Source: a virus | Direction: 5' to 3' (one strand) | Virus record (IMG/VR): IMGVR_UViG_3300046780_000484 | Coordinates: 1-64,000 of that record | DNA: 64,000 bases | Shown: positions 36,404-56,544 of the stretch, piece by piece | Position numbering within the stretch: the stretch's first letter is position 1 | How the letters are laid out: every line of letters begins with the position of its first letter | The notes under the pieces: generated by a model | Seen by the model: only the letters and a program-made list of their open reading frames with translations | Database searches by the model: none | What the model was told of the DNA's origin: nothing | Made by a program: the position numbers and the translations under genes

Positions 36404-37565
36404 TTAAAGGCGTAAGGAGCGTCGCGCTGCCATGCGCGTCAGGAGTTCGTCAATGGCCGGTCCCATGTATTTCTCGGCGACATTGCCGACCTCGTACTGG
36501 CTCACCGACTCGCGGAGTTTTACCTGGTCAACGTCCTGCCGCTGCTCGTACGACTGCTCCAGCGCCGCAACCATTCCTGAAATGGAAGGGCGAATCCACC
36601 AGCCCCTGTGGACGCCATTGAAAAACGGCTCGCCGTCCACCTGGATGCCGTCCGGGTTCAGTTCCTCCATGGACGAGCAGCGGGTCGTGATGACGGGCGT
36701 CCCGCACGCTTTTGCTTCAACGATGGGCAGCCCGAATCCTTCCGCGTACGTCGCCGCCAGCAGCACGTCGCACATCCCGTACCAGTCAGCGAGATCAGCC
36801 GGCTGGATCAGCCCCGCGTTGTACCGGTACTGGTCCACTACCCGAACCCGGTCCGTGATCCCCAGCGACTCCGCCAGGAACTCCAGGTCCTGCCCCCCGT
36901 CGCAGTGCACCGCCGTGTGCAGCCACAGCAGCGAATCCGGCCGCGACCGCAGGAACTTCGCGAACGCGAGCAGCATCTCCGCCGGCGCCTTCCTGATCGC
37001 GTCGTTGTTAGCCGCGTTCACGCCGATCACGAACGTCTCCGGGCCGAGCCCGGCCGCCTCCCGCAGCGCCGCCCGGTCCTCCGGGATGACCCACGTGTCG
37101 AACGGGATGCCGTGCGGCACGTAGAGGGCGTTGCCGAACCCGGCATCCCGGAACCGGTCCAGCCCGAACCGGGACATCGCTATCAGCGAGGCCCCGCCTG
37201 CTTCCACCACGTTCCTGTCCGCCACGGACATCGGACGGCAGTCCGCGGGCAGCCAGTGCGCCACCGGGAGTTCCTTGAGCACGCCCGGGTCCATCACCCA
37301 CACGTCGCCCAGGGTGATCACCAGATCGGGCTGGATGTGGCGGGAGTGCTGCTGGAGGGACGGGCTGCAGTACGACCCGCCGAAGCCGGGAAGGACCGGG
37401 ATGCCCTCCCACTGGGTGACGGATCCCGACAGGCCCCAGTACGTAGCGATGAACACCTCGTGGCCCAATCCGGCAAGGCGCTTTATCCAGATTGCGGTCT
37501 GTTGTCCGTAACCGCTTTAAACTGGCGGACCACGGAGCGCAGCTGCTCCACAAGATCCTCGCCAT
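36404..37565 (-). CDS. GT4-family glycosyltransferase, reading frame broken at a TTA codon (37518-37520)
   Basis: MARILWSSCAPWSAS in one frame, then GYGQQT...GHEV, VPHGI and EGFGLPIVEAKACGTPVI in the +1 frame. Confidence 0.85.
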
Positions 37566-37672: not shown

Positions 37673-38464
37673 GTGAAAGAAATCCCCTTGCGTGGTCGCC
37701 ACGGGCAAGGTCGCGTCATGCTTGTGGATGACGAAGACTACGAGCTAATGTCCCGCATTAAATGGCACGCCATCGTCGATAACAACGGCTGCCTGAGCGT
37801 TCAGGCACGGATCTCTGCCCACAACTTCCTTACCGGCTACGCGCTGACCGATCACGCCAACGGGAACCCTCTGGACAACACCCGAGGGAACCTGCGCGAT
37901 GCCACATCCAGGCAGAACAGCTGGAACAGGCGACTCAGGAGCGACTCCCGAACTGGCTATAAAGGCGTCAACTCAAGGCGGGGCGGGCGAGGGTACGTCG
38001 CACGGATCCTCGTAGACGGGAAGCGTAAAACGCTGGGATGGTTTCACGATCCGATCAACGCCGCGAAGGCGTACGACGCGGCAGCCCGTGAAGCCTTCGG
38101 GGAGTTCGCCCGGCTTAATTTCCCGGATAGCGAAGACCTTCCGGACGCCCGGGAGTCTCGGGTTTCTCGTACGCAGCGCCGCGTCCGGGAGACGATTTCC
38201 GGAATGGAGGATCAGCCCAGCGGAAAGCAGTCCAAGTACTCGGAGGCCAGCTGGAACCGGCCCTACCGCGGGGGAACGCGGGCAGGCTTCAAGGGGGTCA
38301 ACTGGTCAGGCAGGAGATGGCAGGCTCGCATCATGAAAGACGGGAAGCGGCACTTCCTCGGCACCTACGACACCGCCGAGGAGGCGGCCCGAGCGTATGA
38401 CGCCGCCGCTTGCACCCTGTTCGGGGGTCATGCGCGGTTGAACTTCCCAGGGGAGGCGGCGTGA
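37673..38464 (+). CDS. HNH-AP2 homing endonuclease (two AP2 domains)
   Basis: LVDDEDY, DHANGNPLDNTRGNLR, and two GYKGV...ARI..G.R..LG.F....AA.AYD.AA...FG..ARLNFP domains. Confidence 0.92.
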   Translation: MKEIPLRGRHGQGRVMLVDDEDYELMSRIKWHAIVDNNGCLSVQARISAHNFLTGYALTDHANGNPLDNTRGNLRDATSRQNSWNRRLRSDSRTGYKGVNSRRGGRGYVARILVDGKRKTLGWFHDPINAAKAYDAAAREAFGEFARLNFPDSEDLPDARESRVSRTQRRVRETISGMEDQPSGKQSKYSEASWNRPYRGGTRAGFKGVNWSGRRWQARIMKDGKRHFLGTYDTAEEAARAYDAAACTLFGGHARLNFPGEAA

Positions 38465-42577: not shown

Positions 42578-43575
42578 TCAGACGGTACGGCGGAAAGCAT
42601 GCAAAAGAAGCTCACCCTCAGCGATCAGGTCCTCTGCGCCCTTGTCGCTGGACTGCGCCGCGCCGCCTACCGCGTGGATTGTCGTGGACGTCGCGCCCCG
42701 CGTGAGGGCCTCGGCGGTGCAGAAGTAGATGCACGCCTGCTGCACCGAGGACGGCATCGTCGTGACCACCGTCCCCGCCTGATGCGGGTAGGTGATCGCC
42801 TGCGAAAGGGTGAGGTTCCCCGGCCCGGAAGCAGCCGAGGTGGCGGTGACGTGGATGGATTCCTGCTGGCCGCCGTCCTGGATCACCCCGGTAGCCCCGG
42901 TGACCGTGCCGTAGTAGTTCGTGATCCCCCACCCGGTGCAGTCGTTCACCGGCAGCGACGTCGCTCCCGCCGCGACAGCGGAGGTGAGGGAGCAGTGCGG
43001 GTACCCGTTGATGTAGGTGACCTCGGCCGCCCACCCGTTCCGGCCGAGGGACCAGTTGATGTACCCGCCGCCCACGAGGATCGCCTGGCCGCCCTCGGCC
43101 GACCCGCCCGAGGAGACCGTGTTGAGCAGGCTAAGGGGGGGCACTTCGGGCTCGAAGAACCCGGACGGCAAGGACGTCCACGTGCGGGGCCACATCCCGT
43201 TCGGGCAGGTCTTCACCCCGGTCACCTGGAGTACCGGCCACCTGGACAGGATGATGCGGGCGTTCTGCGCCCCGGTGTTCCCCCAGTACGGCGTCGGCCA
43301 GGACCCGCCCGAGGCGGGGCCGACCGTCACCCGGTAGTCGGGGCCGTGGACCAGTTCGACGTCGATCGTGGCGCGGAGAGTCTGGGCGACGTAGCCGTCC
43401 GTACGGGCCGTGGCCCTTGCTGCCATGCTCCAGATTTCAGCCATATTCTGCGCTGGTGTCGGATCTGCGGTGGGTTCGCCTATCGTGCTCCAGTCGATGC
43501 TAAACCGGTCGGGGCCGTAATCAAGGTGGTCGGACTGATGTATGGAGCCAGACCAAGAGGAAGCGGCGTCGACAC
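42578..43575 (-). CDS. Head-to-tail adaptor-like protein, reading frame broken at a TTA codon (43501-43503)
   Basis: GTG 43575 with RBS GAGGTG gives STPLPLGLAPYISPTTLITAPTG, which continues as IDWSTI...RATARTDGY...VTY..GY...MP..VQQAC...LL..FRR in another frame. Confidence 0.75.
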
Positions 43576-43592
43576 AAGGCATCACCTCGCCT

Positions 43593-43787
43593 TCATGCAG
43601 GTGATGCCTTGCGGCTGGGTTTACGAGCACACTTGGAGCAGATCCACTCGCCGTCGACCATGCTGATGTGCCGGTCGCAGCACCCTTCAAGGCAGACGGA
43701 GCACTGGGCGACCGGGGCGGACACGCGGGCGGCACGGCCGCGCTTGGGTCCCCCGCAGCGGGGGCAGAGTCCGGCCGCCCTGCTCAC
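43593..43787 (-). CDS. Small Cys-rich Zn-finger protein
   Basis: CPRCG, CSVC...CC..H, CSKC; RBS GGGAG. Confidence 0.55.
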   Translation of the reverse strand: MSRAAGLCPRCGGPKRGRAARVSAPVAQCSVCLEGCCDRHISMVDGEWICSKCARKPSRKASPA

Positions 43788-43794
43788 ATACTCC

Positions 43795-44451
43795 CTACGC
43801 GGCCTGGAGGCGCTGGATGAGCACGTCCTTGCTGCCCCTGTCGGGGAGCTTCGCCTCGCGGCACATCTTCCGCAGCGTCTGCGGGTGCAGGCGGCCCAGG
43901 TCCACGGCGGGCCCGGCGGCAGGCGCTTCGACGGCTGCGCGGGCGGCCATGGTGACGCCGCACTGCGGGCAGAACGCGCTCCCGGAAGGGACATCGTGGC
44001 TGTTGGCGCACACCACGGTCCCCTGCAGCACGCCCGCGGGAAGTTCCCGCTCGAGCAGCCACAGCGCCTCGGGCGGCACCTCGATGCCGGTGGAGCGGAG
44101 GGCGGCGAGGGCCTGGAGCATCTCGATCTGCATCCGGCCCCGCTCGGACCGGACGGCGTTCGTGCGCGTCTCGTCCGGGGTGAGGGGCACCGTGTCCGGG
44201 GTGCTCGACCACATGGGGTCGGCGTCCGCGATGCGCTCCTGGTGGGTCACCTGGCCGGTCTTCGGGTTGGTCTGGTACCTGAGGATCTTCGGCTTCCGGT
44301 CGCCCCGGAGGTAAGCCTCGCAGGGCGGGCAGTCGATCTTGAAGATCTTCGCCGGGACGCCTCGGGTCACCTCGCGCTGATGCGAAGCTCCGCAGCCGTC
44401 CGGCTGGGGTATTGCGATCGAGCACACGTCCGATCGCGAATAGAGGGTCAT
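43795..44451 (-). CDS. Protein with Zn ribbon and C-terminal SAP/HeH-like domain
   Basis: C...H......FCPQCG; LRKMCREAKL...GSKDVLIQRL. Confidence 0.7.
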   Translation of the reverse strand: MTLYSRSDVCSIAIPQPDGCGASHQREVTRGVPAKIFKIDCPPCEAYLRGDRKPKILRYQTNPKTGQVTHQERIADADPMWSSTPDTVPLTPDETRTNAVRSERGRMQIEMLQALAALRSTGIEVPPEALWLLERELPAGVLQGTVVCANSHDVPSGSAFCPQCGVTMAARAAVEAPAAGPAVDLGRLHPQTLRKMCREAKLPDRGSKDVLIQRLQAA

Positions 44452-48383: not shown

Positions 48384-48610
48384 CGCTTGATGACCTTTCC
48401 CATCAGTTCATAGAGCGCGAGGAATTCTTCATCCCGCAGGGTTAGGGCGTTCTTCCACTCGCCATGCCAGCACCAGTTGATGTCCACGGCGTCGGTGCCC
48501 GAATCGCCGCAGGTGCGGCAACTCCAGTCCGCGTGGGTCGTCATGACCTGGAAGAGGCCTTCGGTAAGGTTCTGGCTGCGGACGACTTCCCCGGGGCGGT
48601 CATCACTCAT
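48380..48610 (-). CDS. Small hypothetical protein
   Basis: ATGA/GTGA coupling; CRTCG. Confidence 0.5.
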   Translation of the reverse strand: MSDDRPGEVVRSQNLTEGLFQVMTTHADWSCRTCGDSGTDAVDINWCWHGEWKNALTLRDEEFLALYELMGKVIKR

Positions 48611-50612: not shown

Positions 50613-50962
50613 GGCGGGAACCCCAATTTCCGCATCGTCTCGCCGGCTTCCGGCATCCTCATGTGCAGGCCATCGCGGGTGCTGCGCCAGCCGGGATGCC
50701 GCTCCTCGTAGTCGTGGTCGAGCAGTCTCGCCTCGGCTTCCAGGGCGTTCTGCCATTCCTGCTGGGTGAACACGCCCTTCTTGACGAGAAGCCCCGTCAG
50801 GGCGCTCATCTCGGCGCGCAGCAGGATCGTGATTTCCCGGTGGTCGGTCACGGCGCGAAACTCGCCATCAGTCGCCGGCTGGGTCCCGAGTTGCCAGCTA
50901 GCGAAGAACTTCCGCCACTTGCACAGCTTCTCCAGGGCTGCGCGCAGGCTGGACTCGCTCAT
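50609..50962 (-). CDS. Hypothetical phage protein
   Basis: KLCKWRKFFASWQLGT; coupled ORF. Confidence 0.65.
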   Translation of the reverse strand: MSESSLRAALEKLCKWRKFFASWQLGTQPATDGEFRAVTDHREITILLRAEMSALTGLLVKKGVFTQQEWQNALEAEARLLDHDYEERHPGWRSTRDGLHMRMPEAGETMRKLGFPP

Positions 50963-51918
50963 CCGTGAGCCCGGTACCAGGCGACGGTGCGGGCGAGGCC
51001 CTCCGCGAACGGCATCTGCGGCCCGGGGTAGCCGAGCGCGGCGATCTTGGACGTATCGGGGAGGCGCCGCGGCGGAGCGCCCTTCGGCAGGGCACCGGGC
51101 ACCACCTTCACAACCCTGCCGTACTCGGCGGCAACATCATGGGCCACGCTGGCGATGGTCCGCTCGTCCATGTTCCCGACGTGGTAGACGTTCGGCCCCT
51201 CAGGAGCCTTGTCCAGCAGCAGGGTCAGCTGGTCAACGCAATCACCGACCCAGACGAAACTGCGCGTCTCAAGGCCGGTGCCCTGGATCGGGAATTCGAT
51301 GACCCCCTCGGGCTGCGCCGCGGCGAGCTTGTTCATCCGCAGGCAGAACATCGGGATCACGTGGTCGGCGCCGGCGTCGGGCCCGAAGCAGTTGTGCGGC
51401 CGGGCAATAACGAGCCGGTCCAGCACCCCCGTCCGCGCCCACGCCATCGCCATCAGCTCGCAGGCGATCTTCCCGCCGCCGTAGGAATACCGGGGGTTGC
51501 GCACATCCGGCACCGTCAGCGGGACCGTCTCCGGCGTCGGCACTACCAGGGCGACCTGGTATGCCTCCGACGAGGACACCAGCAGCATGTCCCCGCAGCC
51601 GGTCTGCTCGCACGCCTTCAGGACGTTCAGCATGCCCCGCACGGCCACGTCGAGGACCTGCCGCGGCTCGGAGTAGAAGACGGCGGTGCCGTTGAGGTAC
51701 GCAAGGTGCGCCACCGAGCCGCAGCCCTGCATCGCGGCCGTCACGGCGTCCGGGTCCCGGATGTCGCCTTCCATGACCTCGCAGGCCACGCCCCGCAGCC
51801 GCTCCGGATGGCCGCGGGACATGTCGTCCAGGACCCGGACCTCGTGGCCGTCCGCAGCTAGGCGGCGGACCAGGGCGCTGCCTATCACGCCCGCGCCGCC
51901 GGTTACGAGTATGCGCAT
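50959..51918 (-). CDS. NAD-dependent nucleotide-sugar epimerase/dehydratase (UDP-GlcA decarboxylase-like)
   Basis: ILVTGGAGVIG, SSSEAY, YGGGK (YxxxK), RPHN.FGP, TRSF. Confidence 0.92.
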   Translation of the reverse strand: MRILVTGGAGVIGSALVRRLAADGHEVRVLDDMSRGHPERLRGVACEVMEGDIRDPDAVTAAMQGCGSVAHLAYLNGTAVFYSEPRQVLDVAVRGMLNVLKACEQTGCGDMLLVSSSEAYQVALVVPTPETVPLTVPDVRNPRYSYGGGKIACELMAMAWARTGVLDRLVIARPHNCFGPDAGADHVIPMFCLRMNKLAAAQPEGVIEFPIQGTGLETRSFVWVGDCVDQLTLLLDKAPEGPNVYHVGNMDERTIASVAHDVAAEYGRVVKVVPGALPKGAPPRRLPDTSKIAALGYPGPQMPFAEGLARTVAWYRAHG

Positions 51919-51927
51919 TCGCGGCTC

Positions 51928-53214: not shown

Positions 53215-54345
53215 TCAGAACAGGGTGGCGGCCAGAGGCTTCCCGTGGACGGCGAGGTCAGCCAGGGCCTTTTTGCGGGCGAGGGCGACCGGAGCGTCAT
53301 CGTAGAGGGCAGCAAGGAGGCGCAGGACGCGCACGGTCCCGCCCACCTGCACGCACCACGTCGTCGTGCTCGGCTTCTTCGGGGTGGCGTGCACGTTAGT
53401 GCCGATGAGCGCGTTGACCCAGGCCTCATATGCCTTCGCCACGGATTCGCTACCGGTCAGTTGCGTGAAGACGCCGCGCTCGTTGATGGTGATGCTGCCA
53501 TCCCCGTCGACCAGTCCGCGCCAGTAGTGCGGCATCAGGACGGCAGGGCCATCCCAGGGCTCAAGCACATCCGTCTTGCGGCGAATAATGCCGTTGTTCA
53601 CCAGGGCTTTAGCCAGCGGAGGCGAGCAGACGGCGAGCATTGAGACGGGAACCATCTTCCCGTAGGACTCTTCCTCGAAATCGCGGATCGGACGCCGGGC
53701 CTTCAGTGACCCGTGAAGCGTTACGAGGTGGTCCCGGTCCTTGCGGGCCAACTTGACCTGAAGACGCAAGTACTCCCGGGTCCCCCTGGTGAATCCCGTT
53801 ACGCATCCGTCTGCGCCAAGGAAGCCGAGCCAGTAGGCCTTGTCGGGGGTGTCGATCTGGTCGAAGTAGCCGGGGTTGTCGCAGGCGATCCGCTCCCTGC
53901 GCCCGATGCCCAGTTCTTCCAGCACGTTGTAGACGCTGGATGAATGGCAGCCGAGCACGCGCCCGATCTCCGGGGCATCCATGCCGCTCTCGTACAGGCC
54001 GGGGACGCGTTCGCGGAGTTCATCGGCGAGCCGGTGCGGCTTCCGGTCTGGCACGCTGCCATGACGGCGCAGCACCGCTGTGATGGTGTGCTCAGTACGC
54101 CCCGACCTGCTGACGATCTCAGTAAGCGGCACGCCGTCTGCGTACAACTGGAGGATCTTCGCCTCATCCTCGGGCGAGGTCCGGGTGTTGAGTTGCCCAC
54201 GGTCGGCAGCAACGCCCTCCTTGCGAAGGGCGTTGCCGACCGTGTACGCGCTGAAGCCGGTTTCATCGGCAATCTCTTGCCATTTCATCCCGGCCTGATA
54301 CATGGCGGCGATACGCCGCCGGTCCTCTGGAGTAGTGCGTCTCAT
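53215..54345 (-). CDS. Free-standing double-motif LAGLIDADG homing endonuclease with three N-terminal HTH repeats
   Basis: AYWLGFLGADGCV and HYWRGLVDGDGSI; TAAGCT -10 box 6 nt before the ATG. Confidence 0.92.
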   Translation of the reverse strand: MRRTTPEDRRRIAAMYQAGMKWQEIADETGFSAYTVGNALRKEGVAADRGQLNTRTSPEDEAKILQLYADGVPLTEIVSRSGRTEHTITAVLRRHGSVPDRKPHRLADELRERVPGLYESGMDAPEIGRVLGCHSSSVYNVLEELGIGRRERIACDNPGYFDQIDTPDKAYWLGFLGADGCVTGFTRGTREYLRLQVKLARKDRDHLVTLHGSLKARRPIRDFEEESYGKMVPVSMLAVCSPPLAKALVNNGIIRRKTDVLEPWDGPAVLMPHYWRGLVDGDGSITINERGVFTQLTGSESVAKAYEAWVNALIGTNVHATPKKPSTTTWCVQVGGTVRVLRLLAALYDDAPVALARKKALADLAVHGKPLAATLF

Positions 54346-54384: not shown

Positions 54385-56544
54385 CTAACTGTAGGGGCTG
54401 ATGTCGCTCACCTGGAGACCCTGAAGGATTCCAGAGTAGAACGGCGCATGTGCGACCAAAGACCCCAAAAGGAATATCGAGTACCTAAAGGTCGCATCTA
54501 TGACAGGCCACGCGCAAGGTGTTACATCTACCCAAAACGGACAGATGGGCGGGTCATTTCTGCCGCGCCTCTGCATCTTCGCTGGTCAATGCAGTTCGGA
54601 ACGTCTCACGATCTGCCGTCGCCCGGCCCGTAATGCCTCGGGCCGACGCCGGTTACACAGATCCGGCACATACGCTCTCTGCACACCGCCAGGCATCGAC
54701 GGTGCTCACGATTCCCCTGTTGCTACAGCCGGGGTTTCCTGATCAGTGCCGTTATTCGACGGAGGTCACCCTCCGAAGCCGCCTGATTACTAGTTGACGG
54801 AAACGTAGTCCTGTACGCAGGTCATCTCCCACGCGTTGTCCACGTGGCTCCACGTCTGCGGGAGCTGGTAGGACATCAGCAGCGCCGTGCCCTGGGACAT
54901 CCAGGGGTGCACGGTCAGCTTCACGGTCGACCTCGTGACGGGGTTCACGAACTCCGCCACGGCAGCCCCGGCGCGAATGCCGGAGATCTGGTCCTGGGAG
55001 ATGTTGAGAAGGTAGTTCAGGCCCGCGCCCTGGGTGAGCATGTCGTTCGCGAGCCGCATCAGGTCGCCGCCGTCGGCGACGATCTCGGACGGGTCAGCCC
55101 GGTACACGCCCGGGGTGACGTTGTTCATGCCGTTGTTCTCCCACAGCCCGTCGAGCGCCGTGAAGATGGCGTTCGTGCTGAGGTGGGTCCCGACGGACTG
55201 GTTGACGTAGCCGCCCTGCCACACGTTCGCGGCCTCGAACCCGACGTTCGCGTACGGGCCGGAGCCGGTGTCGGACAGGCCGGACAGCACCGGGATGAGG
55301 CCTTCCATCCGCTGGCTGGAGCCCGTCCCCGTGTCCGTCGCCGACGCGGTGTTCGCCGTGGCGACCGCGCCCTGGATGGTGAACCGGATACCGCCCACCG
55401 AGTTCGCGGTCTGCTTGCCCGTGGTCGTGACGCCGGCCTGCACCGACGTGCCGACCTGGAGGAACCCGTTCGCCCTCGAGGCCGAGGAGTTCGTCGACAC
55501 GTAGATGTTGTACTGCTGCGCCCCGGCGACCGGGGTGATCACGACGTCGACGACGTTGCCGGTGGTCAGCGGGGTGTCCGAGGTGAACGAGCTGACCGTG
55601 GTCTCGCCGAAGTAGTTCAGCGCGGTCACCGCGACGGCGAAGTGGGTGCCGCCGCCTGTGATGGCGGTCTCGTTGGAGCCCGCCACACGCTGGGTGATGG
55701 CAGGCGCTGCGGGGGTCGCGAGGTTCTGGGACGAACCCGCGATCATCTGATATTCCTCGCCCAGCATCATCTCTTGCAGCAGCACGAGATTAGCGAGGGC
55801 GGAGATGTCCTCAAATCCCTGACCCTGGAACTGGGCCAACCAGCTGAGCGACTCACTGAGCCCAAAAAACCTGTAGGGCACGTTGAGCCGGTACTGGGTC
55901 TGGGACCCGGCGCCGGGGATGTTGAGCGGCCAGGTCGAGCCGATGCCCGTCTGGCCGGACTGGACGAGTTCCGGCAGGGAGATGTCGATGACACCCTGGC
56001 CGCCGGTCTGGCTGCCGGAGATGCCCAGGAGGCCGTAGACCTGCTTGGACAGGCCCTGGCCGGCCGGGCGGGGGAACTTGTTGCGGAAGAGCGTGTACAC
56101 GGGGTACACGAGCCGCGAAGGCGCCGCGAGATCGAACGGAACGAGCCCGTACGGCGCACCCGCCGTCCCGAGGTTCTGCGCGGTGAAGTTCTTCCGCACG
56201 TCGGCGTCGGCGCGAAGCCGGTACGCCAGCGGGGCGAACTGCGGGTTCGTCGCGAACTCCGTCGCCAGGCTGCCGATCACCGTGTCCGAGTCGTGGCGGC
56301 CCTGGACCGTCGCGGCCTTGGTCCGCAGCATCAGGTCATGGCTCTTGGTGAAGATCGTCCCGCCGTCGGACGCGTCGTCCAGGGGGATGCCCTTGGTGAC
56401 GTGGCCGACGCCCTTGACGGCCTTGGCCGCGGACTTGGTGATCGCTTCCTCGAAGTTCCTGCCGGACGGGGGGGCCATGCGCGGCGCTCCCCCTGCCCCC
56501 ATCTGGGGGCCTGCCGCCTCATCGGCGGCGTACGTTACTGCCAC
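54385..56544 (-). CDS. Major capsid protein (exon 1 56544-54797, exon 2 54514-54385; 625 aa spliced)
   Basis: Follows the protease/scaffold gene; GLVPFDLAAPSRLVYPV, EMMLGEE, VHPWM.QGT. Splicing yields ...QDYVSVAWPVIDATFRYSIF...LQGL. Confidence 0.88.
54515..54796 (-). ncRNA. Group I self-splicing intron (282 nt, no ORF)
   Basis: Exon ends in U and intron ends in G; P1 exon CCGU pairs with intron GCGG (G-U wobble); P3 CGGCAC/GTGCCG; R/S-like GCAGAGAGCGTA and GAGACGTTCCG (P7). Removal restores the frame. Confidence 0.9.

What the first reader, a model, noticed from the sequence alone, without database searches (positions are those of the whole stretch)
43480..43575. Second TTA-centred frame break, in the head-to-tail adaptor-like gene
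Seen (minus strand): RBS GAGGTG-7nt-GTG(43575) ...GCC CCG ACC GGT TTA GC ATC GAC TGG AGC ACG. The plausible N-terminus PYISPTTLITAPTG joins IDWSTI only after skipping 5 nt; reading TTA gives a stop seven codons later. The take-off codon is GGT and the landing triplet AGC matches tRNA-Gly(GCC) at two of three positions. Two independent breaks in late genes, both xGT-TTA...AGC near the 5' end, are unlikely to be random decay, especially in a presumably essential virion gene. Caveat: an in-frame ATG directly abutting the RBS could give an alternative N-terminus.
Basis: partly seen in the sequence, partly recalled or inferred. Interest (0 to 1): 0.75.

Follow-up and report, generated by a model that had tools for sequence, protein, structure and literature searches.

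The report
TTA-led ribosome-hop gap in adaptor gene
A soil phage's head-to-tail adaptor gene is interrupted after codon 24 by five real extra bases that begin with the almost unused codon TTA, and dozens of differently interrupted relatives indicate that ribosomes hop over such inserts, which in some relatives sit right behind selfish DNA-cutting genes.

Summary
On the minus strand, GTG 43575 opens 24 codons that end in GGT (43506-43504). Then come TTAGC (43503-43499), and the rest of the gene (43498-42578) is in another frame.

The break is not decay. Of 91 related loci, 41 are interrupted within the same few codons, by 27 distinct inserts of 2-26 nt. In 22 of the 27 types the next codon is TTA, which is 1 of 8711 codons in this phage's large late genes. 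Both flanks are under purifying selection, and 36 of 36 complete interrupted genes are otherwise open. The triplet before the resume codon usually matches the take-off codon.

The best reading is a UUA-triggered translational bypass, as published for the phiHau3 terminase. This is comparative evidence only; there is no RNA or protein data.

In relatives the insert marks a recombination joint, and 11 of 13 LAGLIDADG-bearing loci are interrupted, which recalls T4 gene 60/MobA. The window has no nuclease gene beside this gap.

The scan has noted TTA gaps before on other DNA, including this gene family. Fold search supports a head-to-tail adaptor.

The parts
43583..43588 (-). Shine-Dalgarno-like GAGGTG, 7 nt before the GTG start
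   Evidence: Read. The same GG(A/G)GGTGATG context precedes the start in related loci.
43573..43575 (-). GTG start codon of the adaptor gene
   Evidence: Intact homologues start at the matching position with ATG or GTG.
43504..43575 (-). First coding segment: 24 codons, ending in the take-off codon GGT (43506-43504)
   Evidence: In 35 distinct interrupted loci, codons 2-23 have dN/dS 0.11.
43499..43503 (-). Five-base untranslated insert TTAGC. TTA (43503-43501) is the A-site codon. AGC (43501-43499) is the landing triplet just before the resume codon.
   Evidence: The insert is absent from the 50 intact loci and from the full-length homologues. It is present in the contig of run X1.
42578..43498 (-). 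Second coding segment: resumes at ATC 43498, 306 codons plus stop. Together with the first segment this gives 330 residues, like the intact homologues.
   Evidence: 425 homologues were found. The fold of an 80%-identical intact homologue matches phage neck/adaptor proteins.
43480..43482 (-). TAG that ends the first frame seven codons after TTA, if TTA is decoded as Leu
   Evidence: ORF 43480..43575, 31 aa.
43573..43613 (-). Strong hairpin that pairs the SD and the GTG start. The stop of the upstream gene (TGA 43595-43593) lies in its loop.
   Evidence: -29.7 kcal/mol, z -3.86, 0 of 200 shuffles fold as well. The inverted repeat was also seen. A similar arm pairing is visible in L045 and L055.
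43593..43790 (-). Upstream neighbour: a small zinc-ribbon-like ORF (CxxC pairs). It is the usual neighbour of this gene in relatives, and no endonuclease gene lies here.
   Evidence: It has no Pfam hit.

Best explanation
The gene at 43575-42578 (minus strand) encodes the phage's head-to-tail adaptor. It is expressed as one 330-residue protein by translational bypassing.

Proposed mechanism (inferred): the ribosome translates 24 codons and stalls with peptidyl-tRNA-Gly on GGU and the very rare UUA in the A site. The peptidyl-tRNA un-pairs, the mRNA slides by five bases, and the tRNA re-pairs imperfectly with AGC (two of three positions). Decoding then resumes at AUC.

Shown here: the five bases are real. 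The protein is continuous across this point in intact relatives. The same few codons carry many different TTA-led inserts in relatives. Both sides of the insert stay under selection.

Inferred: the hop itself, its trigger and its efficiency. An adaptor is needed at only about a dozen copies per virion (established knowledge of adaptor rings), so a low yield could be enough.

On origin, I infer that such inserts arise and spread around homing-endonuclease attack on this conserved stretch. In relatives the insert is the exact right-hand edge of exchanged DNA that often carries a LAGLIDADG nuclease gene. In the window only the insert is present.

If the host's tRNA-Leu(UAA) is developmentally limited, as bldA is in Streptomyces, the insert would also tie adaptor synthesis to host state. 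That is the published phiHau3 hypothesis and was not tested here.
For: 1. Continuity. Intact homologues of 328-332 aa run from the first-frame peptide straight into the second-frame peptide.

2. Recurrence. 91 loci (window included) hold both parts. 50 are intact and 41 are interrupted within residues 23-28. There are 27 distinct take-off/insert/landing types of 2, 5, 7, 8, 9, 10, 11, 12, 15, 16 and 26 nt.

3. Signal. The next 0-frame codon is TTA in 22 of the 27 types and TAG in 2. TTA is 1 of 8711 codons in the window's large late ORFs. The take-off codon ends in T or A in 26 of 27 types.

4. Landing. Over 14 take-off/landing classes, positions 1, 2 and 3 match in 6, 12 and 12. Fully cognate pairs are GAT/GAC, ACT/ACC and ATA/ATA. 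L061 and L068 carry a second gap 27 nt further on (GGT, 7 nt, landing GGC).

5. Simple shifts fail family-wide. Gap lengths fall in all three residue classes modulo 3. Many gaps hold TAG or TAA in the resume frame. Two 3n gaps carry in-frame stops.

6. Selection. dN/dS is 0.11 for codons 2-23 and 0.19 for 30 codons after the site in interrupted loci. Out-of-frame controls give 1.9 and 4.1. All 36 complete interrupted genes are open for at least 287 codons after the site.

7. No restart. Many interrupted loci lack the Met43 that gene callers used (alignment).

8. Spacing. 80 of 81 diverse homologues have exactly two residues between the near-invariant G24 and W27. The site lies in a confidently modelled stretch (pLDDT 88 for residues 21-30).

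9. Precedent. UUA-led 7-10-nt gaps in phiHau3 and two prophage terminases have a junction peptide found by mass spectrometry in E. coli (PMC10732093, sections 3.4, 3.6 and the closing discussion section read). The phiHau3 sites read have the same build.

10. Origin. L047 (intact) and L058 (26-nt gap plus LAGLIDADG gene) are 100% identical from the first base after the gap, 70% identical in the 66 nt before it, and not alignable further upstream. L087 and L094 show the same pattern. A LAGLIDADG gene lies directly upstream in 13 in-clade loci, and 11 of them are interrupted.
Against: There is no RNA, ribosome or protein evidence.

The window's landing triplet AGC matches GGT at only two of three positions. 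For a 5-nt gap without in-gap stops, a +2 shift (one extra Ser) or a -1 shift (two extra residues) would also give an open product.

No stable RNA structure surrounds the gap (z 0.48, 122 of 200 shuffles fold as well).

Exceptions exist in the series. L045 and L100 have 12-nt gaps that begin with CAA and end in TAG. L062 and L064 have a 2-nt break without TTA. GAT/GGC and ACA/ATT landings miss position 2.

One TTA is an ordinary in-frame codon of a small ORF in the window (48567-48565), so TTA can be read or is regulatory there too.

The host is unknown, and no relative was found in 185,579 species genomes.

The nuclease link is modest. In-clade loci with at least 300 nt of upstream sequence split 11 interrupted and 2 intact with a LAGLIDADG gene, against 23 and 23 without (Fisher p 0.03, rows not independent). 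The window itself has no nuclease gene at this gap.

Only 2 of 10 near-identical pairs show the sharp joint.
Confidence: 0.72

Rival explanations
1. The ribosome makes a short frameshift at GGU-UUA instead of a hop over the whole insert: +2 (skipping UU) or -1. The full-length adaptor then has one extra residue (Ser) or two (Phe-Ser) between G24 and I25.
For: In the window neither alternative frame has a stop inside the insert. Hungry-codon frameshifting is established knowledge (recalled). L074 is best read as a 2-nt skip at TCT-TTA, and L062/L064 as a 2-nt skip.
Against: 80 of 81 diverse homologues keep exactly two residues between G24 and W27. Relatives with 7-, 10-, 16- and 26-nt inserts have stops in the resume frame inside the insert, so they need a full skip. 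There is no slippery heptamer. For phiHau3 the published junction peptide showed bypass, not a shift (PMC10732093 section 3.6).
Confidence: 0.12
2. The gene is split. A 31-residue leader peptide is made from GTG 43575, and the functional adaptor starts independently at the ATG of Met43 (about 288 aa), as gene callers annotate many relatives.
For: Of the 120 best database homologues, 54 are called from the Met43 region and 31 were sorted as 'other' by my pattern. Of those 31, two (P0016, P0104) read through the site; the rest start elsewhere downstream or, like P0069, in the wrong frame. The window has ATG at that position.
Against: Many interrupted loci have no Met there (NINEIW, NEAEWW and others). 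The codons between the insert and Met43 stay conserved and open in all interrupted loci. The N-terminal 24 codons are under strong selection in frame (dN/dS 0.11). Residues 7-330 of the model align to solved adaptors.
Confidence: 0.05
3. The five bases are a disabling mutation in a defective phage, or an assembly error, and the gene is dead.
For: This is a single metagenome-derived record that is about 67% complete. Only contigs, not raw reads, could be laid. Its nearest relative, L066, has a separate 1-nt frame change further on.
Against: Two assemblers agree on the five bases. 41 of 91 loci from many samples are interrupted at the same few codons. TTA occurs there against a background of 1 in 8711 codons. 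All 36 complete interrupted genes are otherwise open. Selection acts on both flanks. A second TTA-led break with a cognate AGT/AGC pair lies in the same phage.
Confidence: 0.05

Closest known systems
UUA-led coding gaps in the large terminase of Streptomyces phage phiHau3 (two of 10 nt) and of the StrepC.1 and S. catenulae prophages (Smith et al. 2013, cited within; Antonov et al. 2023, PMC10732093; sections 3.4, 3.6 and the closing discussion section read)
   Same: The rare TTA directly follows the last conserved codon. A short non-coding block breaks the frame, and the junction is conserved in uninterrupted homologues. The landing triplet is cognate or matches at positions 2-3; in phiHau3 the pairs are GGC/GGT and GTC/TCC by my reading of the record. 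The host type is high-GC actinobacteria.
   Different: The gene is different (adaptor, not terminase). The gap is shorter (5 nt). The take-off codon ends in T. Frequency is far higher: 41 of 91 loci against 3 of 100 terminase genes, with 27 insert types at one spot. In relatives the insert is a recombination joint next to homing-endonuclease genes, which that paper does not discuss ('homing' occurs 0 times). No product has been shown here.
Phage T4 gene 60 50-nt bypass within the MobA HNH homing-endonuclease element (Bonocora et al. 2011, cited within; Manning and Atkins, bioRxiv 10.1101/2022.08.31.505936; passages read)
   Same: An untranslated insert in an essential phage gene is skipped by the ribosome between matched codons. 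The insert lies at the edge of DNA moved by a homing endonuclease. Relatives exist that have lost the nuclease and kept the insert. Identity breaks cleanly at the element's edge.
   Different: The window's gap is 5 nt, not 50. It has a rare sense codon instead of a stop after take-off, although L048 and L049 have TAG. No take-off stem-loop was found. The nucleases in relatives are LAGLIDADG-type, not HNH MobA. No nuclease gene lies next to this gap in the window. Protection from cutting is untested.
Short hops and slides at hungry or stop codons in E. coli test constructs (Weiss et al. 1987; Gallant et al. 2003; seen only as entries in the reference list of PMC10732093; content recalled)
   Same: The peptidyl-tRNA leaves a codon when the A-site codon is slow to decode and re-pairs a few bases downstream.
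   Different: Those are laboratory constructs with low yields. Here the event is built into a natural essential gene and conserved across many phages.
Head-to-tail adaptor proteins of tailed phages and GTA (neck of phage 812, 8qje_W; Mycofy1, 9lw9_C; GTA, 6te8_B; T5, 9ilp_a)
   Same: The fold of the whole chain matches: Z 10.4 over 204 residues at rmsd 3.8, Z 9.3 over 163, Z 9.3 over 160 and Z 8.6 over 162. In BFVD, 18 matches reach E <= 0.001, and several of them are named Gp6 domain or head-to-tail adaptor.
   Different: Pfam and PHROGs find no sequence family. An extra beta domain (residues 190-273) is inserted, and alone it matches tailspike and EF-Tu barrels.

Membership tests
UUA-led short-gap translational bypass (phiHau3 terminase type) | The very rare TTA/UUA is the first codon after the last conserved codon | tested here: met
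   GGT-TTA lies at 43506-43501. TTA is 1 of 8711 codons in 15 large late ORFs. TTA is the next codon in 22 of 27 insert types in relatives.
UUA-led short-gap translational bypass (phiHau3 terminase type) | A short block that is absent from uninterrupted homologues, whose protein is continuous and conserved across the junction | tested here: met
   The intact homologues read and 50 intact loci read straight through. G24-W27 spacing is fixed in 80 of 81 homologues.
UUA-led short-gap translational bypass (phiHau3 terminase type) | The triplet just before the resume codon can pair with the take-off tRNA | tested here: inconclusive
   In the window GGT and AGC match at positions 2 and 3 only. In relatives the match is fully cognate in GAT/GAC, ACT/ACC, ATA/ATA and GGT/GGC. 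Position 2 matches in 12 of 14 classes.
UUA-led short-gap translational bypass (phiHau3 terminase type) | A full-length product with a junction peptide lacking the gap-encoded residues | not testable with these tools
   Needs mass spectrometry or reporters. No RNA holder was listed among the runs.
UUA-led short-gap translational bypass (phiHau3 terminase type) | A host in which tRNA-Leu(UAA) is limiting (bldA-type control) | not testable with these tools
   The host is unknown. No relative was found in the species-genome scan, and the window has no tRNA gene.
T4 gene 60 / MobA-type cassette (homing endonuclease plus bypass insert) | A homing-endonuclease gene directly beside the interrupted gene | tested here: not met
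   The window's upstream neighbours are a zinc-ribbon ORF and a SAP-domain ORF. The feature is met in relatives: a LAGLIDADG gene lies 30-80 nt upstream in 14 loci, and Pfam PF14528 is over its cut-off in 4 of the 7 LAGLIDADG-type ORFs scanned.
T4 gene 60 / MobA-type cassette (homing endonuclease plus bypass insert) | The insert lies at the clean edge of the mobile DNA | tested here: inconclusive
   This is seen in relatives: L047/L058 and L087/L094 are 100% identical after the gap and 70-77% before it. The window has no close enough relative to test it (best N-terminal identity 0.83).
T4 gene 60 / MobA-type cassette (homing endonuclease plus bypass insert) | A stop codon after take-off, a take-off stem-loop and a gap of about 50 nt | tested here: not met
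   The window has TTA, not a stop. No structure stands out (z 0.48). The gap is 5 nt.
T4 gene 60 / MobA-type cassette (homing endonuclease plus bypass insert) | The insert protects the DNA from the nuclease | not testable with these tools
   Needs cleavage assays.
Head-to-tail adaptor (gp6/gp15-like neck protein) | Adaptor fold over the whole chain | tested here: met
   The model of the intact homologue P0005 (80% identical) has pLDDT 86.2. Matches: 8qje_W Z 10.4 over 204 aligned residues; 9lw9_C Z 9.3 over 163 of 167; 6te8_B Z 9.3; 9ilp_a Z 8.6. BFVD gives Gp6/adaptor names.
Head-to-tail adaptor (gp6/gp15-like neck protein) | Match to a curated sequence family | tested here: not met
   No Pfam or PHROGs family at E <= 0.1. 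There is only a weak tblastn match beside the annotated adaptor of Arthrobacter phage Sonali (27.6% identity, E 3e-4).
Programmed -1/+1 ribosomal frameshift | A slippery heptamer or shift-prone codon pair giving a colinear product | tested here: not met
   There is no X XXY YYZ motif at ACC GGT TTA. Relatives' inserts hold stops in the resume frame and have lengths in all classes modulo 3. A +2 or -1 shift stays possible for the window alone.

The most novel reading that the evidence does not exclude
The TTA-led insert is first of all a DNA-level immunity mark in an arms race with homing endonucleases. In this reading, LAGLIDADG (and other) nucleases encoded just upstream in relatives cut the conserved stretch that encodes APTGID. 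Repair copies the nuclease gene plus the first 23-26 codons up to the cut. The few inserted bases then stop re-cutting. An essential gene tolerates them only because a rare TTA or a stop makes the ribosome hop. That would explain why near-identical genes carry different inserts, why the insert is the exact edge of exchanged DNA, and why phages like this one keep the insert without the nuclease. It would join the two published kinds of phage bypassing (T4 gene 60/MobA and phiHau3 UUA gaps) into one principle. Any host-state (bldA) gating would be a secondary effect.
Probability: 0.45. Interest if true: 0.85.

Novelty: new variant of a known kind. Interest (0 to 1): 0.7.

Why it matters
Programmed translational bypassing is one of the rarest ways of reading a gene. 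In print it rests on T4 gene 60 and its relatives, yeast mitochondrial byps, and three actinophage or prophage terminase genes.

This adaptor gene offers a natural allelic series at one spot: 27 insert types of 2-26 nt, cognate and near-cognate landings, stop-led and TTA-led forms, and double gaps. That series amounts to a ready-made mutational analysis of what a ribosome needs in order to hop.

It also shows that gene callers systematically truncate such genes. My start-pattern sort put only 35 of the 120 best database homologues in the full-length class, though contig ends may account for part of the rest.

If the nuclease link holds, micro-bypass inserts would be a general way for phages to alter a nuclease target inside an essential conserved protein without changing the protein. 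If UUA decoding depends on host state, virion assembly would be coupled to host development.

Tried and rejected
Pfam and PHROGs on the downstream frame gave no family.

tblastn against 50,697 phage records gave only 4 weak records from 2 phages.

The search for related loci with a single protein gave 5 loci. The alignment query was needed.

The scan of 185,579 species genomes found no relative: 35 pattern matches, none confirmed. There is therefore no host anchor.

The first structure job, with a shallow 22-sequence alignment, gave pLDDT 56.8 and was not used. The second, with 81 sequences, gave 86.2. Foldseek against the PDB gave no match at E <= 0.001. The neck proteins stood out only in the second look and in BFVD.

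A GC3-based scan for in-frame TTA followed by a frame change was too noisy, because antisense frames also score high. Its one candidate on the late strand (48567) proved to be an ordinary in-frame TTA.

RNA folding around the gap showed nothing beyond shuffles.

No RNA holder was listed among the sequencing runs. All four runs laid were contigs, so they say nothing about expression. X2's contig does not bridge the site by the tool's 31-base rule.

I looked for a close relative of the window on either side of the gap, to test for a joint in its own history. None is closer than 0.83 before the site and 0.80 after it.

I considered transcriptional slippage (only a run of three T) and an intron (5 nt is far too short) and rejected both from the sequence.

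phiHau3 has no homing-endonuclease gene beside its terminase other than gp1 HNH, about 1.4 kb upstream, so the nuclease link cannot be read back onto the published case.

The supplements of PMC10732093 (site tables and structures) were not opened and may bear on the comparison of landing codons.

Searches for a printed link between UUA gaps and homing endonucleases found none in the held library. In PMC10732093 'homing' occurs 0 times.

Full report
WHAT IS THERE. The window is the first 64 kb of an 81.6-kb uncultured virus record. Its G+C content is 68.6% and its late genes lie on the minus strand. Read on that strand, GAGGTG (43588-43583) is followed after 7 nt by GTG (43575). Then come 24 codons ending in GGT (43506-43504), then TTA (43503-43501) and GC (43500-43499). 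From ATC (43498) a different frame is open for 306 codons down to the stop at 42578-42580. If TTA is read as Leu, the first frame stops at TAG 43482-43480; this is the 31-aa ORF 43480..43575.

WHICH N-TERMINUS. A search of 5.8 billion proteins gave 425 homologues. The full-length ones (328-332 aa, up to 89% identical) begin with the peptide of the GTG frame and pass without a break into the peptide of the second frame. In interrupted relatives, codons 2-23 have dN/dS 0.11 in the GTG frame and 1.9 and 4.1 in the other two frames. The ATG-started frame is therefore not a protein.

The five bases stand in a contig built by another assembler from the run that may be the source (no difference over 42900-43900, depth 13.2). 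They also stand in a short contig of a different study that does not reach far enough past them to count as bridging.

THE SERIES IN RELATIVES. Scans with an alignment of homologues gave 39 viral loci and 79 metagenome loci. The single-protein scan added one more partial locus (L007). None came from species genomes. Some loci are the same contig held in two collections, for example L009 and L070.

Ninety-one loci, the window included, hold both the start and the body of the gene. 53 keep one frame and 38 change frame. Resolved against the conserved pattern A-P-T-G-(I/V)-x-(W/F), 50 are intact and 39 are interrupted. Two more, cut at a contig end, show the same ATT-TTA insert.

All interruptions lie after residues 23 to 28. 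There are 27 distinct combinations of take-off codon, insert and landing triplet. Their lengths are 2 (2 types), 5 (3), 7 (8), 8, 9, 10 (5), 11, 12 (2), 15, 16 and 26 nt (2).

The 0-frame codon after take-off is TTA in 22 types and TAG in 2. Two 12-nt inserts begin with CAA and end with TAG before a cognate GAC. One 2-nt type has no TTA.

In the window's 15 large late ORFs, TTA is 1 of 8711 codons. That one lies at the other break described below.

Take-off codons end in T or A in 26 of 27 types. Such codons make up 6-12% of the Gly, Thr, Asp and Ile codons in the window's late genes. By my reading of the list, though, this stretch is AT-richer at third positions even in intact loci.

HOP RATHER THAN SHIFT. 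The triplet just before the resume codon matches the take-off codon at positions 1, 2 and 3 in 6, 12 and 12 of 14 take-off/landing classes (binomial p 1.4e-4 for position 2 against an assumed 0.35). Fully cognate pairs are GAT/GAC (7-, 10- and 12-nt inserts), ACT/ACC and ATA/ATA.

L061 and L068 carry two inserts 27 nt apart, GAT...GAC and GGT...GGC.

Insert lengths fall in all three classes modulo 3. Many inserts hold TAG or TAA in the resume frame. Two of the three 3n inserts carry an in-frame stop. No single +1 or -1 rule can serve them all, but skipping the whole insert restores the consensus protein in every case.

Across 81 diverse homologues (29-82% identity), 80 have exactly two residues between the near-invariant G24 and W27. 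The site lies in a well-modelled stretch.

For the window's own 5-nt insert the landing is near-cognate (AGC for GGT), and both a +2 and a -1 shift would stay open. The hop is therefore the family-wide best reading, not a proven one for this locus.

NOT DECAY, NOT A SPLIT GENE. All 36 interrupted genes that are complete in their contig are open for 287 codons or more after the site; 5 run off a contig end. The 30 codons after the site have dN/dS 0.19 in interrupted loci. Many interrupted loci have no Met at the position where gene callers start the 288-aa products.

My start-pattern sort of the 120 best database proteins put 35 in the full-start class, 54 as beginning at the Met43 region and 31 as other. 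Of those 31, P0016 and P0104 read through the site, and P0069 carries a wrong-frame N-terminus. Some of these may be cut by contig ends.

WHAT THE GENE IS. Pfam and PHROGs are silent. A model of the 80%-identical intact homologue P0005, built with 81 sequences, has pLDDT 86.2 and pTM 0.84.

It aligns over its whole length to neck/adaptor proteins: phage 812 (Z 10.4, 204 residues, rmsd 3.8), Mycofy1 (Z 9.3, 163 of 167), GTA (Z 9.3) and T5 (Z 8.6). In BFVD, 18 matches reach E <= 0.001, and several of them are named Gp6-domain or head-to-tail adaptor proteins.

An inserted beta domain (190-273) alone matches tailspike and EF-Tu barrels.

A JOINT OF EXCHANGED DNA. A maximum-likelihood tree of the part after the site has 71 rows. 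It puts all 37 interrupted rows in one clade of 56 (support 100/100), together with 19 intact rows. The 15 rows outside are all intact.

Inside the clade, insert types are scattered, and near-identical proteins carry different inserts or none.

DNA alignments show why. L047 (intact) and L058 (26-nt insert) are 100% identical from the first base after the insert, 70% identical in the first 66 nt of the gene, and not alignable further upstream. L087 (ATT, 7 nt) and L094 (GGT, 7 nt) behave the same way (100% against 77%). Weaker steps are seen in L049/L059, L045/L055 and L050/L061. L050 and L094 share the start-plus-insert module (0.88) but not the body (0.61).

Among 10 pairs at least 97% identical just after the site, 2 drop sharply at the site. 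None drops at three control boundaries further into the gene.

THE NUCLEASE GENES. The usual upstream neighbour, in the window too, is a small zinc-ribbon ORF.

In 14 loci a 260-420-aa ORF instead ends 30-80 nt before the start. It has two LAGLIDADG-like motifs and N-terminal zinc-finger-like repeats. Pfam LAGLIDADG_3 is over its cut-off in L094, L009, L097 and L064 and under it in L058, L055 and L046. L091 has an HNH-like ORF by eye, with no Pfam hit.

Among in-clade loci with at least 300 nt of upstream sequence, 11 of 13 with the LAGLIDADG gene are interrupted, against 23 of 46 without it (Fisher p 0.03; rows are related, so this is a weak figure).

The window has no such gene at this gap. 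It does hold a LAGLIDADG+HTH gene at 53215-54345 and an HNH_3/AP2 gene at 37673-38464. The HNH_3/AP2 gene lies right beside the phage's other TTA-led break (AGT, 7 nt, landing AGC).

COMPARISON WITH WHAT IS KNOWN. UUA-mediated bypass of 7-10-nt blocks is published for the phiHau3 terminase and two prophages (3 of 100 terminase genes). A junction peptide was found by mass spectrometry in E. coli, and a regulatory (bldA) hypothesis was offered (PMC10732093; sections 3.4, 3.6 and the closing discussion section read). Read in the record, the two phiHau3 sites have a cognate landing (GGC/GGT) and a two-of-three landing (GTC/TCC), like the series here.

The T4 gene 60 insert belongs to the MobA homing-endonuclease element. 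It protects against MobA, shows clean breaks in identity at the element's edges, and persists in phages that lost the nuclease (bioRxiv 10.1101/2022.08.31.505936, passages read).

I found no paper that links UUA-led gaps to homing endonucleases (searches; 'homing' is absent from PMC10732093).

Earlier notes of this scan report nuclease-linked TTA gaps in at least 24 other genomes, including an 11-nt gap in an adaptor gene that fits L009/L070 of my series. I reached the nuclease idea from my own alignments before reading those notes (note).

MECHANISM AND LIMITS. Shown: the sequence, the continuity in homologues, the recurrent TTA-led inserts, the selection on both flanks, the adaptor fold, and the joints and nuclease genes in relatives.

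Inferred: that the ribosome stalls at UUA and hops five bases; that yield suffices for a protein needed at about twelve copies per virion; that the insert blocks a nuclease; and any tie to host tRNA-Leu(UAA).

Against the reading: there are no expression data and no structure at the gap. There are exceptions to the TTA and landing rules. A sense TTA lies elsewhere in the window. The host is unknown. The nuclease association is modest and non-independent.

A strong hairpin (43613-43573; -29.7 kcal/mol, z -3.9) hides the SD and the start, with the upstream stop in its loop. This suggests coupling to the upstream gene. It is a separate feature.

VERDICT. This is a real, non-random interruption of an essential virion gene. 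It is best explained as a UUA-triggered ribosome hop of the published phiHau3 kind, in a new gene and with an unusually rich natural series. In relatives it is tied to homing-endonuclease traffic as in T4 gene 60. My confidence that a single product is made by the exact five-base hop, the reading stated in the best explanation, is about 0.72. Adding the 0.12 given to the short-shift rival, recoding of some kind stands at about 0.84.

Noticed in passing
window 37673-38464 (+), beside 37508-37565: This ORF has an AP2 domain (40.8 bits, over the cut-off) and a weak HNH_3 match, so it looks like a homing endonuclease. It lies directly next to the start of the glycosyltransferase gene, which carries the phage's other TTA-led break (AGT, 7-nt insert, landing AGC).
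   Followed up: partly
window 53215-54345 (-): A free-standing LAGLIDADG-like gene (PF14528 26.1 bits, over the cut-off) with N-terminal helix-turn-helix repeats sits in the late operon. It lies between the 584-aa ORF 54790-56544 and a 93-aa ORF. Its C-terminal half resembles the nuclease ORFs found upstream of the adaptor gene in relatives.
   Followed up: partly
window 43573-43613 (-): A strong hairpin (-29.7 kcal/mol, z -3.86) pairs the Shine-Dalgarno sequence and the GTG start of the adaptor gene. The upstream gene's TGA lies in its loop, which suggests translational coupling. Related loci show a similar arm pairing with different letters.
   Followed up: partly
window 48385-48609 (-), TTA at 48567-48565: A small ORF of about 74 codons with CxxC motifs holds an ordinary in-frame TTA with no frame break. 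It is a possible bldA-type dependent gene.
   Followed up: no
L061 and L068 (metagenome loci), about 27 nt after the first gap: A second TTA-led insert (GGT, 7 nt, landing GGC) lies in the same gene, so these two loci need two hops within ten codons.
   Followed up: partly
L044 (9 nt), L045 and L100 (12 nt), L085 (15 nt): These inserts are multiples of three. L044's has no stop, so both reading and hopping would give full-length protein. The others carry in-frame TAG or TGA. L045 and L100 begin with CAA rather than TTA.
   Followed up: no
L066 (nearest relative of the window), about codon 57: L066 is intact at the TTA site but has a separate one-base frame change further into the gene. It could be an assembly error or another recoding site.
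   Followed up: no
window 50959-51927 (-): An NAD-dependent epimerase/dehydratase gene (Pfam E 2.8e-39) lies in the late operon. Together with the glycosyltransferase, it points to sugar modification by the phage.
   Followed up: no
L045, L052, L100, upstream of the adaptor gene: A conserved small ORF (C-terminal part ...RRMAARQGL.LTRTRR.DPLAIDYGTYHL...) with no Pfam hit replaces the zinc-ribbon neighbour in three interrupted loci.
   Followed up: no
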